Notes: generated by a model not told the origin, from the letters alone. Numbered from the stretch's first letter, positions 1-63,111 are shown. The stretch: DNA of 64,000 nt from Gekko japonicus (GCF_001447785.1 NW_015177030.1:408053-472052); one strand, 5' to 3'. Program-made: numbers and translations.

Positions 1-780
1 GAAAGGAGGACCCCACCCTTGGCGGCAGGCCCCGGAGCGGCGCGGCATGGACCGGCGACCCCCGTAGCGGCCGCGCCCCGGACCCGCCTGCTCGCCCGCC
101 GCCGCCGCCGCCGCCATGCCCTGAGCCGCCCCTGGCCAGAGGGGGGGGCCCGCCGCAGGACATGCCCCGCCGAGCCGGCCCCAGATAGCAGGTAGGCGCA
201 CGCGGCTCCTCGGGCAGGGCGGCCAGGCCCGGGGCTCGGCTACGCGCCCGAAGGGCTGGGTCGCGGCGGCCTGCTGCAAAGGCGGAGCGCTCTGTGCAGG
301 CTCAGAGGCCTTCGGGTCCCCCTAACATCCTCTCTCTCCCTCAGCTGCGCCCCCCCGCCGGGCGCTCCCCGCCCCGCCGCCCGCCCGCCCGCCCCGGGAA
401 GATGAATGCCAGCCCCCAGGAGGCTCTCATCTCCGTGTTTCTGCAGTTCGTGGAGGATCGGGGCCGCTGGGCCTACCGGGCCCTCAGCCAGACGCACCAG
501 CCCCAGGCCCGGGAGCAGCTGCACAACGAGATGAACCTGCTGTACCGCAAGAGCAAGGTGGAGTGGAAACAGAGCAAGGACGAGGAGCCCAAGAAGGGGT
601 AAGCGGCAGGCTCCGGGGCCCCTGGGATCCGGCCTTGCTAAAGCCAGAACGCCAGCCCCTTCCGGGAGGCCTCTAGGGGGCGGCTTTAAATCGCCTGCTT
701 TGAGGCGCCCCAGCTGGGGTGGAATCTGCTCCAAACTGGGGGGGGGGGGCAGCCGGGTGGGGGGGGCCAAGTCCCCTCAA
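1..780 (+). promoter_or_regulatory. CpG island with NYAP1 5' UTR exon (to 191) and first coding exon
   Basis: Very GC/CpG-rich with a (GCC)n run. Donor CAG|gtaggc after 191, branch-like ctaac near 322, polypyrimidine tract and acceptor tcag|c before 345. Confidence 0.7.
402..598 (+). CDS. NYAP1: NYAP1 coding exon 1
   Basis: [16 protein letters not shown]...[22 protein letters not shown]; donor GG|gtaagc, phase 2. Confidence 0.88.
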
Positions 781-60600: not shown

Positions 60601-63111
60601 GCGGGGGGGGTGGCTCCTTGGCCAGCGACTACGTGAACATGTCCCCCCTCAGCCGCTCGGCCTCCAGCACCCCGCCCGAGTACAGCCCCCTGCTGGCCCC
60701 TCCCGGCGCCGCGCCCTTCTACTCCCTGCCGCGCTCCTACAGGCGAGGGGGGAGGCCGCTCTCTTTCCCCTTCCACCCGGGGCGCCTCTCGAGCTCCTCG
60801 TCCACCAGCTCAGACAGCCTGGAGGAGTGGGTGGGCGCCCCGTGTTCGGCCCGTCCTCCTCCGAGGCTCCTGGTGGGGGGCAGAGCCACACCGGCCGCAC
60901 CCCGCAGCTCCGGCGAGTACATCAGCCTCGAATACGGCCCCCGAGCCCCCAGCTGTGTCCACTTGGAGCTCCAAGCCGTGCCGGCGGAGGTCAGCGAGGT
61001 GGCGGGGCCTCCTGGCGATGGTGCAGCGGTGCCGATGACCCGTCTGGTGCGAGCAGACGCCCCAGGGAGGCGACACCACGGACCGGAAGCCTTCCCTGAA
61101 GTGGAGCAGAACGGGGTGCAGCCCTGCGAGGCCGGGACTGAGCCAGGGCTGAACTATATTGACCTCGACCTGGTGAAGGAGGCCGGGGCGGAGGGGGGGC
61201 CCCCACTGCGTGCCGCTGCCGCCATCCCCAGCCAGGGCGGGGCCCTCCACACGTATGCCAGCATCGACTTCCACCGCCCGTGGGAGCTGCGTGGATGCCA
61301 GCCAGGCCCTGAGCAAGCCGGTGAGGGAGCAGGCCGGCACTTGAGCGGGGGAGACAGTGGGGGTTAGGGAGGGGAAGGAAGCTCTGGGCAGAGAGAAGAT
61401 CGGGCCGCCTGTTCTATGGCAAAGGAGACGCCTGTCTTCAGGGGTCATTTCCTAGAAAAAGAGGTGTAGGAGCTCATCTGCAGAACTCATTTGCATATGC
61501 CACACCCCCTGACAAAGGGCAGGCATGTTTAAAATGCAAAGGCAGAGAGGCGGGCGGGCTGGAGAAGGGGAGGGCAGGGAGGCAAACATGCCTTGCATTC
61601 AAACCCCCCCCCCCCCCGTTTCTCCACCAGCAGCCAGGAAAGGCCGGGGGTCGGGGCTCCTTACTGCCGGAGCGCCGCTCCGGGGTGCTCTAGCAGGAAA
61701 TGACCCCTGCCTGTCTTCCTGTCTTAAGTTTCACAACAGCCTTGCGAGGTAGGCTAATGAGGGAGGGGGCTGCTCTTCAGCTGTTGTCGAAGGAGGCCAC
61801 ACTGGCGAGTCTTTGGGCGTAGCCCTCTGAGTCAAACTGGGGACCCAAAATAACCTCTGCGATTGATGGGTGTCGTTTTGGGTGGTTACCGTGACCCCAA
61901 ATGCCACCCGAAGCTCTGTCTCCCCCCCTCCCAGCCCCAGGATTGTTCAGGCATCTCTTTTCCTGCTCTGGGGTGGGTTAGCCCCTTGACATTGTGGAAA
62001 TGGTGCACACCTTAAGTCACCGGTCCCCTAAATTTGTCGAAATCTGTACCGTGGCCCTGCCTGCGGTGGCCCCGGGGGTGTCTCTGGGCCGGATTTCTCT
62101 GGCTCTGCTAAAGAGTTGTCTTCCTGTTGCGCCTCCCCACCTGGCCACAGCCTGGTCTGGACCGCGAGTGGACCCTGTTCCTCTGTCCCCTTTCAACCAG
62201 GAAATGTTTTGTAACTTGAGGCAAGCTGCCCGTTTTCTGTGGGGTCTGCATTTCCACTTGGTGCCCACCCCACGGCGAACAAGAGTCCTCCCCTTCCTGG
62301 GCTTGGGCCTCCCTCCCAGCCAACTCTTCCCCTTTCCAGTCCTGCTTCAAGCTTCCTTCAAGAGCCAGTTTGGCGTCGTGGTTAAGTGTGCGGAGTCGGA
62401 CTCTAATCTGGGAGAACCGGGTTTGATTCCCCATTCCTCCACTTGCACCTGCTGGATGACCTTGTGCAAACCACAGTTCTCTCAGAGCTCTCTCAGCCCC
62501 ACCTGCCTCCCAGGTTGTCTGTTGTGGGGAGGGGAAGGGAGAGGAGTTTGCTCCCTAGTTCCGTTTTCCAGATGGGGAGGGGGGGTGCGTCAGGGATGCC
62601 TGAATCTGTTGGGGAAGGGGCCAGGCCCTTTCTCCCCCCTGTCTTTTCCGGCGCTCTCGCCCTCTTAGTTTGTAGCGGCGGAATCAGGAGTAGGGGCGAT
62701 GGCAGGACGCAGGCCTGTCCGGTGCCGCCGGACTCCTGGGCGCTTGTCCCAGGCCTCTAGCTTAGACATCTGCATCGAGTCCTCCCCCTTCCCCCCCCAT
62801 ATTTTTTGGGAGGCTTGTCCAGGGTGCGGGGGCCGATCCCTCCAAGGGTGCCACAGCAGGGCACGTGCTTTCTTCTGCGGCCTCTGGATCCGTTCTGCCT
62901 GCAGGGAGGTTCCGTCAGCCGTTTTGTTACATCTTGTGTCTGAATTGCGTTCCAGAAGGTGTGGAGGAGGAGGATGGGCTTGGTCCGCCAGTGTGCGCTC
63001 TTGGGCAGGATCCGTGGGTCTTTTCTGGAGCACCCTTTGAAAAGAGCTCCCCCCCCCCACCCTGAACTGAAACTGCTCCTTTTCCTTCTCTCTTTCATTC
63101 CAGAGTTGTGA
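54295..63111 (+). CDS. IRS3: Insulin receptor substrate 3; join(54295..54643,59621..61320,63104..63111) with an apparent 1-nt deletion near 60585-60612; ~685 aa if corrected
   Basis: PH domain [22 protein letters not shown]...[12 protein letters not shown] (IRS3-type); intron between PH and PTB as in rodent Irs3; IRS-type [38 protein letters not shown]; YxxM sites; [14 protein letters not shown]. Syntenic with NYAP1/AGFG2. Confidence 0.88.
57886..58575 (-). mobile_element. CR1 LINE 3' end in IRS3 intron 1
   Basis: [42 protein letters not shown]; near-identical to the 21005-21550 copy. Confidence 0.9.
59010..59215 (-). mobile_element. hAT-type MITE family 1 (inverted copy)
   Basis: TIRs caatgctccctctaag / cttagggggaacactg; TSD atgctaaa/gtgctaaa. 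Confidence 0.82.
59621..61320 (+). CDS. IRS3: IRS3 exon 2 (PTB domain and tyrosine-motif tail; frameshift near 60600)
   Basis: Strong acceptor tctcttctctcctcttgcag|. ORFs 59776-60636 and 60342-61367 overlap and each carries IRS motifs. Donor CCG|gtgagg. Confidence 0.88.
61439..61709. mobile_element. hAT-type MITE family 3 in IRS3 intron 2
   Basis: TIRs caggggtcatttcct / aggaaatgacccctg; perfect 8-bp TSD cctgtctt at 61431-61438 and 61710-61717. Confidence 0.85.
63104..63111 (+). CDS. IRS3: IRS3 terminal coding mini-segment (E-L-stop), start of 3' UTR exon
   Basis: Long pyrimidine tract ...ctctttcattccag|AG TTG TGA; matches the phase-1 donor at 61320. Confidence 0.65.

What the first reader, a model, noticed from the sequence alone, without database searches (positions are those of the whole stretch)
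402..63111. Four-gene ancestral block NYAP1-AGFG2-RHBDD1-like-IRS3 mirrors NYAP2-IRS1-RHBDD1-AGFG1
Seen: NYAP1(+), AGFG2(+), rhomboid(-) and IRS3(+) within 63 kb, with the rhomboid and IRS3 divergent. Established, from memory: IRS1 and RHBDD1 are divergently transcribed neighbours near NYAP2 and AGFG1, and IRS2 lies beside MYO16 (NYAP3). Inference: this window preserves a fuller copy of the pre-duplication block than mammals do. It links two YxxM-type PI3K adaptors and keeps the IRS/rhomboid head-to-head pair.
Basis: partly seen in the sequence, partly recalled or inferred. Interest (0 to 1): 0.7.

Follow-up and report, generated by a model that had tools for sequence, protein, structure and literature searches.

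The report
Tailless second RHBDD1 beside gecko IRS3
This gecko keeps, beside its insulin-signalling gene IRS3, an intact second copy of the membrane protease gene RHBDD1 that lacks the usual tail for handing proteins to disposal; turtles, a caecilian and the coelacanth have it too, it is predicted to be an active enzyme, and it is likely a relic of the ancient vertebrate genome doubling that mammals appear to have lost.

Summary
All four genes are present in the stated order and strands. The rhomboid is an intact three-exon paralogue of RHBDD1 (RHBDL4): both introns sit at the same sites and phases as in this genome's own RHBDD1, the Ser/His dyad is kept, and the 194-aa protein stops after TM6, without the UIM and p97-binding tail. 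Orthologues occur in squamates, turtles, a caecilian and coelacanth, perhaps sharks; RefSeq labels them 'rhomboid-related protein 4-like'; my paper searches found no description. The same genome carries the sister block AGFG1-COL4A3/4-RHBDD1-IRS1, with the same divergent rhomboid/IRS pair. The window's region is quadruplicate A of Lamb's paralogon 16, the 2R sister of the IRS1 region, and its IRS cell is blank. So IRS3 is most likely the 2R sister of IRS1, which a 2017 paper left open and a 2012 paper asserted in passing. Corrections: the order is not a true mirror (about two inversions), the collagen pair is missing, co-regulation is not shown, and IRS3 has one frame break in this assembly. 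Protease activity, loss in mammals and linkage outside this genome are inferred. The scan had not noted this before.

The parts
402..16361 (+). NYAP1. Exons 402-598, 12062-12351, 12943-14214 checked; later exons only roughly placed; stop at 16359-16361
   Evidence: Pfam NYAP_N; first three exons open for 586 aa with AG/GT ends; exons 1 and 2 shared with the NYAP2-type gene on C6796; YIEM and YEEM motifs
29049..39256 (+). AGFG2 (ArfGAP with FG repeats), ends ...PPTNPFL; transcribed 3' region reaches about 40.9 kb
   Evidence: Pfam ArfGap; 5 exons match AGFG1 on C10573 in order; stop; reads and contigs at 40.0-40.9 kb
43030..43387 (-). RHBDD1-like rhomboid, coding exon 1 (358 nt): TM1-TM3, W-x-R loop motif, ends in GFS-G with catalytic Ser119
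   Evidence: 36% identical to the first coding exon of the genome's RHBDD1
42559..42694 (-). RHBDD1-like rhomboid, coding exon 2 (136 nt; RHBDD1 133 nt), phases 1 and 2
   Evidence: the following 235-nt intron is skipped in one contig of run X1
42233..42323 (-). RHBDD1-like rhomboid, coding exon 3 (91 nt with stop): TM6 with His171 and GxxxG; the stop falls where the 89-nt RHBDD1 exon splices on to the tail
   Evidence: no tail exons anywhere in the window
52001..53403 (.). CpG-rich stretch upstream of IRS3, followed by an assembly gap (53404-54000); probable IRS3 promoter
   Evidence: CpG observed/expected 0.73-0.88; gap; function inferred
54295..63111 (+). IRS3. Exon 54295-54643 (PH), exon 59621-61320 (PTB, YxxM motifs, one frame break near 60,600-60,610), last exon 63104-63111
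   Evidence: Pfam PH and IRS; fourth IRS gene of the genome, with an intron between PH and PTB; exon ends; about 3x RNA depth on exon 1 in run X8

Best explanation
The window holds NYAP1, AGFG2, an intact tailless RHBDD1 paralogue and IRS3, and is likely the copy, made at the second vertebrate genome duplication, of the block that survives elsewhere in this genome as AGFG1-COL4A3/4-RHBDD1-IRS1. After duplication this copy likely lost its collagen IV pair, shrank, and underwent about two local inversions, keeping the divergent rhomboid/IRS core. Its rhomboid lost the exons for the ubiquitin-interacting and p97-binding motifs but kept a six-helix core with the Ser-His dyad. It is predicted to be an active intramembrane serine protease that cleaves substrates without ubiquitin recognition or direct p97 hand-off, with a changed TM2 substrate-contact face and so likely other substrates than RHBDL4. 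The linkage itself is most likely inherited synteny, not a functional unit. Shown: genes, exon structure, motifs, missing tail, sister block, wide distribution. Inferred: 2R timing, activity, location in the ER or secretory pathway, loss in mammals.
For: Introns: same two sites and phases (1, 2) as RHBDD1 on C10573; exons 358/136/91 versus 433/133/89 nt. Sister block on one contig: AGFG1(-) 202 kb, COL4 NC1 domains (-) 288-298 kb and (+) 546-549 kb, RHBDD1(-) 565-605 kb, IRS1(+) 661 kb. Distribution: 12 named rows of 17, all squamates; Anolis, turtles, Latimeria; Rhinatrema, two sharks, more turtles. Tree of 28 rows: squamate+turtle+caecilian+coelacanth clade 98/95; duplication within squamates (p-AU 5e-48), sauropsids (1e-4) or bony vertebrates (0.02) rejected. 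Lamb 2021 (PMC8040251) Table S1: paralogon 16 has IRS1/IRS4/IRS2 in B/C/D with A blank; A is gar LG2 57-63 Mb, opossum chr2 254-257.5 Mb, human 7q22/17p13; Irs3 lies at gar LG2 58.06 and opossum chr2 257.24 (PMC5482937 Table S1); A and B are 2R sisters; TSC22D4 is in A and a TSC22 domain lies 11 kb before the window. IRS1 and IRS3 share [11 protein letters not shown] where IRS2/4 have GLNYIAV; the published tree joins Irs2 with Irs4. NYAP1 shares exons 1-2 with NYAP2 more than with MYO16. Motifs: W65, R67, H80, N84, S144 in 17 of 17 paralogues, H195 and GxxxG in 16 of 17; D78 and Y82 in 29 of 29 RHBDD1 but 0 of 17 paralogues, W79 27 of 29 versus 0 of 17. Tail profile finds two RHBDD1 exons (E 3e-19, 2e-12) and nothing in the window. 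Model of the 91%-identical Gekko kuhli orthologue: pLDDT 90.5, six long helices, best match GlpG, TM 0.61. One contig skips intron 2 exactly.
Against: The rhomboid tree alone does not date the split: a lobe-finned-specific duplication (p-AU 0.07) and a separate shark duplication (0.08) are not rejected; all paralogues as one group has only 69/88 support; lamprey's place is 40/0; branches are long. The IRS quartet prefers (1,3)|(2,4) without significance (4 versus 3 and 2 informative sites; alternatives p-AU 0.22), and the published rooted tree puts Irs3 outside the other three. In exon 3, NYAP2 is closer to MYO16 than to NYAP1 (179 versus 152 bits). Linkage outside this genome rests only on near-consecutive accession numbers. 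No paralogue was seen in ray-finned fish, lungfish, frogs or crocodilians, and Irs3 was not found in elephant shark. Two raw-read RNA runs gave under 1x and 0x depth over the rhomboid. No activity data.
Confidence: 0.78

Rival explanations
1. The rhomboid arose by a later small-scale DNA duplication of RHBDD1 in early lobe-finned fish and came to lie beside IRS3 secondarily; the shark sequences are a separate duplicate.
For: Neither topology is rejected at 5% (p-AU 0.07 and 0.08); no gar, reedfish or teleost paralogue seen; a partial duplication would explain the missing tail exons.
Against: It needs the copy to land by chance beside another IRS gene, in the same divergent orientation and on the same side as an AGFG paralogue, inside the 2R sister region; the best tree places it outside all jawed-vertebrate RHBDD1.
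Confidence: 0.12
2. The rhomboid/IRS pair is kept because the two genes share regulation (bidirectional promoter or enhancers), so the block is a functional unit for PI3K signalling.
For: Divergent orientation kept in both copies; CpG-rich stretch between them; YxxM motifs in NYAP1 and IRS3.
Against: ATGs are 10.9 kb and 55.8 kb apart; run X8 covers IRS3 exon 1 but not the rhomboid; no joint links the rhomboid to the CpG stretch among the joints shown; mouse Irs3 is flanked by Agfg2 and Lrch4 with no rhomboid named (PMC5482937); NYAP changed sides.
Confidence: 0.12
3. The rhomboid is a decaying or non-catalytic remnant: truncated, fast-evolving, without protease function.
For: Long branches; loss of N-terminal 26 aa and tail; little RNA in two runs; apparently lost in several lineages.
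Against: Open frames of 187-199 aa in 13 of 13 sauropsid rows with invariant catalytic and loop motifs; 66-87% identity across squamates; spliced contig; confident rhomboid fold.
Confidence: 0.08
4. The rhomboid is a retrocopy, recent insertion or assembly artefact of this gecko.
For: The assembly is fragmented, with five gaps in the window.
Against: Two conserved introns; orthologues from squamates to coelacanth; recent duplication rejected.
Confidence: 0.01

Closest known systems
RHBDD1 / RHBDL4 (ER rhomboid protease; S144/H195, UIM, VBM; PMC11929074 passages)
   Same: Intron sites and phases, W-x-R loop motif, GFSG serine, TM6 histidine and GxxxG, six-helix fold, position divergent from an IRS gene.
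   Different: About 35% identical; lacks the first ~26 aa and the whole UIM/VBM tail; D77, D78, W79, Y82 of TM2 replaced (D77 and W79 are docked substrate contacts in PMC11929074 Table 2); gene spans 1.2 kb versus 40 kb.
RefSeq 'rhomboid-related protein 4-like' of squamates, turtles, Rhinatrema, Latimeria (e.g. XP_060112460, XP_025036220, XP_029437446, XP_005999866)
   Same: These are its orthologues; the gene is already annotated automatically in many genomes.
   Different: No name, no function and, in my searches, no paper treating them as a distinct ohnologue.
Paralogon 16 of Lamb 2021 (PMC8040251), IRS-COL4A blocks of PMC5482937 and PMC12141075
   Same: Same four-fold region; IRS1, IRS2 and IRS4 each beside a collagen IV pair, also seen in this genome.
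   Different: Lamb's IRS row leaves quadruplicate A blank and the held part of the supplement has no IRS3, RHBDD1, AGFG or NYAP entry; the 2017 paper calls the origin of Irs3 undetermined; PMC3411107 says in one sentence that IRS3 fits a 2R-ohnologue pattern.
Mouse Nyap1-Agfg2-Irs3-Lrch4 locus (PMC5482937 Fig. 2 legend and text)
   Same: Same neighbours; TSC22 domain upstream and a weak SAP25 match downstream here.
   Different: No rhomboid is named between Agfg2 and Irs3 in mouse.

Membership tests
Active rhomboid protease | GxSG serine on TM4 and histidine on TM6 | tested here: met
   GFSG Ser119 and His171; conserved in 17 of 17 and 16 of 17 paralogues
Active rhomboid protease | Six-helix rhomboid core with W-x-R loop, H-x-x-x-N and GxxxG | tested here: met
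   motif table; model of orthologue P0001, pLDDT 90.5, GlpG best match
Active rhomboid protease | Serine-dependent intramembrane cleavage | not testable with these tools
   needs enzyme assay
RHBDL4/RHBDD1 proper | Falls in the RHBDD1 orthologue clade | tested here: not met
   separate clade; the genome's true RHBDD1 is on C10573
RHBDL4/RHBDD1 proper | C-terminal UIM and p97-binding VBM | tested here: not met
   stop after TM6; tail profile finds control exons but none in the window
RHBDL4/RHBDD1 proper | Shared intron positions (DNA-level paralogy) | tested here: met
   two introns, phases 1 and 2
2R ohnologue of RHBDD1 | Lies in the 2R sister paralogon among other paralogue pairs | tested here: met
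   IRS, AGFG, NYAP pairs; Lamb 16A/16B
2R ohnologue of RHBDD1 | Duplication node before the shark/bony-fish split | tested here: inconclusive
   best tree fits, support 69/88 and 72/91; later nodes partly rejected
2R ohnologue of RHBDD1 | Same neighbours in distant vertebrates | tested here: inconclusive
   only accession-number proximity for Latimeria, Pogona, Lacerta, weakly Rhinatrema
IRS3 | PH and PTB domains split by an intron, short tail, beside AGFG2 | tested here: met
   the intron as an IRS3 hallmark is recalled
IRS3 | Uninterrupted reading frame | tested here: inconclusive
   one frame break at a G run in this assembly; not checked against reads

The most novel reading that the evidence does not exclude
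Non-mammalian vertebrates keep a sixth active rhomboid protease, an RHBDL4 ohnologue from the second genome duplication that was stripped of its ubiquitin- and p97-binding tail and works outside canonical ERAD on its own substrates; with NYAP1, AGFG2 and IRS3 it marks the missing fourth IRS paralogon, making IRS3 the sister of IRS1 and implying a lost fourth collagen IV gene pair at this site.
Probability: 0.55. Interest if true: 0.65.

Novelty: new variant of a known kind. Interest (0 to 1): 0.5.

Why it matters
It speaks to a question left open in print (PMC5482937: did Irs3 come from genome duplication?) with gene-level evidence from one genome, and fills the blank cell of a curated paralogon table. 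It also adds an undescribed vertebrate rhomboid: reviews list five mammalian rhomboid proteases (PMC12476590), and this would be a natural, long-kept tail deletion of RHBDL4, useful for separating cleavage from ubiquitin/p97-coupled extraction. It is a hidden ohnologue of a familiar type, not a new kind of system.

Tried and rejected
Retrocopy or recent insertion: rejected (introns, distribution). An upstream in-frame extension (LLLLPHTLP) resembling the RHBDD1 N-terminus: set aside; it follows an in-frame stop, looks like a polypyrimidine tract, and the squamate orthologues start at the same Met. Hidden tail exons: none found. Collagen IV on the window's contig: 0 of 25 NC1 matches; the contig is 829 kb and the count is a lower bound. 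LRCH4 by CH-domain search: 0 of 67 matches on C17320, uninformative for split exons. Downstream neighbours: 146 ORFs scanned, one sub-threshold SAP25 match (E 0.003). Run search: no RNA holder listed. IRS3 frame break: not resolved; no read data were obtained and the published Irs3 sequences are shown cut. XM/XP offset for coelacanth: no paper found to calibrate it. The 54-row mixture-model tree did not finish; its quick version agrees with the 28-row tree. Paper searches without a description of the paralogue: 0 papers; 0 papers; subscription journals are not covered. Lamb's supplement is held cut, and file 13 of PMC5482937 was not searched. Scan look-ups by sequence and place found nothing.

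Full report
Observation. The window is from a gecko-like squamate: its rhomboid is closest to a Gekko kuhli protein, 91% over 186 columns. Pfam finds NYAP_N, ArfGap, Rhomboid, PH and IRS domains in the order and strands given. NYAP1 runs 402-16361, AGFG2 29049-39256, the rhomboid 43387-42233 on the minus strand, IRS3 54295-63111. IRS3 changes frame once, at a run of G near 60,600-60,610; the downstream frame carries [13 protein letters not shown] and YASIDF. IRS2 of the same assembly also shows a frame break, so an assembly error is likely, but this was not checked against reads.

The rhomboid. Three exons give 194 aa. The genome's RHBDD1 lies on C10573; its first three coding exons have introns at the same sites and phases, and the window gene stops where RHBDD1 splices on to its tail. 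A profile of 13 RHBDD1 tails finds two RHBDD1 exons at E 3e-19 and 2e-12 and nothing in the window. RHBDL4 uses S144/H195, binds substrates through a UIM and recruits p97 (PMC11929074, passages). The paralogue keeps the dyad and loop motifs but replaces D78, W79 and Y82 in 17 of 17 rows. A model of the Gekko kuhli orthologue has six long helices, pLDDT 90.5, and matches GlpG best. One contig of run X1 (RNA is the tool's guess) skips exactly the 235-nt second intron; two raw-read RNA runs gave under 1x and 0x over the gene, while one of them covered IRS3 exon 1 and the AGFG2 3' end. Expression is therefore probably low or tissue-restricted.

Distribution. A single-sequence search gave 17 proteins of 2,727 candidates, 12 named, all squamates. 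A profile added Anolis, turtles and Latimeria (39 of 7,999). A search of 50%-identity representatives (2,732 hits, 150 listed), of which I looked up 20 proteins, added Rhinatrema, Pristiophorus and Scyliorhinus; lamprey and amphioxus hits are tailed RHBDD1-type proteins. The 13 sauropsid rows are 187-199 aa; Latimeria ends just after TM6; caecilian and shark proteins have tails without the VBM pattern, judged by eye. No mammalian, bird, crocodilian, frog or ray-finned paralogue was seen, but one search listed only 120 of 989 hits and no other vertebrate genome could be searched, so loss is inferred.

Phylogeny. In a 28-row tree chosen from 54 rows, squamate, turtle, caecilian and coelacanth paralogues form a clade (98/95) apart from RHBDD1. 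Duplication within squamates, sauropsids or bony vertebrates is rejected (p-AU 5e-48, 1e-4, 0.02). A lobe-finned-specific or separate shark duplication is not (0.07, 0.08), and deep nodes are weak.

Synteny. C10573 carries AGFG1(-), a collagen IV pair, RHBDD1(-) and IRS1(+) in that order; the other two IRS genes also share contigs with collagen IV domains, the window's contig does not. AGFG exons match in order. NYAP1 shares its first exon (40%, E 5e-4) and second exon (87 versus 37 bits) with the NYAP2-type gene on C6796 rather than MYO16, although in exon 3 NYAP2 is closer to MYO16. NYAP2 is on another contig; its place beyond IRS1 comes from PMC12141075 (passages) and its orientation is recalled. 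On that basis the window needs about two inversions relative to the sister, so 'mirror' is true for content only.

Other species. Only accession numbers were available, and their following genome order is recalled knowledge. Latimeria Irs3 is XM_005999802 and the rhomboid XP_005999866. In Pogona the rhomboid XP_020655433 lies between LRCH4 ...392 and SLC2A4 ...471; in Lacerta it is ...893/894 versus SLC2A4 ...955; in Rhinatrema the gap is 412 with an unrelated gene between. This suggests but does not show conserved position.

Literature. PMC5482937 (passages, sections 6 and 7, parts of supplements 5-7) finds Irs3 away from any collagen gene, calls its origin undetermined, joins Irs2 with Irs4, names Agfg2 and Lrch4 as mammalian neighbours and reports loss of the region in birds. 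PMC8040251 (passages; supplement searched, one part read, held cut) lists IRS1/IRS4/IRS2 in quadruplicates B/C/D of paralogon 16 with A blank; A covers the gar and opossum coordinates of Irs3; A and B split at 2R. PMC3411107 (two passages) says the IRS3 pseudogene fits a 2R-ohnologue synteny pattern. PMC12141075 (passages) does not mention IRS3 and links COL4A5/6 to COL4A1/2 through ANKRD paralogues. PMC12476590 (passages) lists RHBDL1-4 and PARL. Searches gave no description of the paralogue; other papers were seen as listings only. My own IRS quartet prefers (1,3)|(2,4) but not significantly; the shared [11 protein letters not shown] motif agrees.

Verdict. Real. The block is most likely the 2R sister of the IRS1 block (about 0.8). 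The chromosome-scale paralogy is known; the rhomboid ohnologue, its missing tail and the gene-level case for IRS3 as sister of IRS1 appear undescribed. The predicted mechanism is intramembrane serine proteolysis uncoupled from ubiquitin and p97; substrate and tissue are open. A functional link between NYAP1 and IRS3 is not supported by anything tested.

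Noticed in passing
window 60,600-60,610: IRS3 frame break at a run of G; as assembled the protein would stop at 454 aa. IRS2 (L032) also has a frame break at the end of its PH domain, which points to assembly errors in GC-rich genes.
   Followed up: partly
window 402-598: NYAP1 begins with about 44 aa before MNLLYRK that match exon 1 of the NYAP2-type gene (L030, 40%); that mammalian NYAP1 starts at MNLLYRK is recalled, so mammals may have lost this extension.
   Followed up: partly
whole window versus G000:C10573:545000-604999: GC 55.6% versus 41.2%, and the rhomboid gene is about 35 times shorter than RHBDD1: the compact, GC-rich member of the pair.
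   Followed up: partly
window 21094-22545 (-), 2932-3444 (-), about 58,100-58,500 (-): Reverse-transcriptase-like retrotransposon fragments (LINE type, label recalled, not tested) in the NYAP1-AGFG2 gap and in introns.
   Followed up: no
window 28346-28917 and 53404-54000: Assembly gaps fall on the GC-rich promoter regions of AGFG2 and IRS3.
   Followed up: no
G000:C17320:397199-397363 (-) and L016:3996-4352 (-): TSC22 domain 11 kb before the window and a sub-threshold SAP25 match about 4 kb after it, as expected for this locus.
   Followed up: partly
P0122 (Sardina pilchardus): A fast-evolving 'rhomboid-related protein 4-like' with GFNG in place of GFSG that groups with teleost RHBDD1, probably a teleost duplicate, not this paralogue.
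   Followed up: partly
P0043, P0050, P0052 (P0043 and P0052 unnamed): RHBDD1-like proteins of 532-557 aa with two rhomboid domains in tandem.
   Followed up: no
P0004 (Pogona vitticeps): The orthologue carries an internal 54-aa duplication, probably an assembly or annotation artefact.
   Followed up: no
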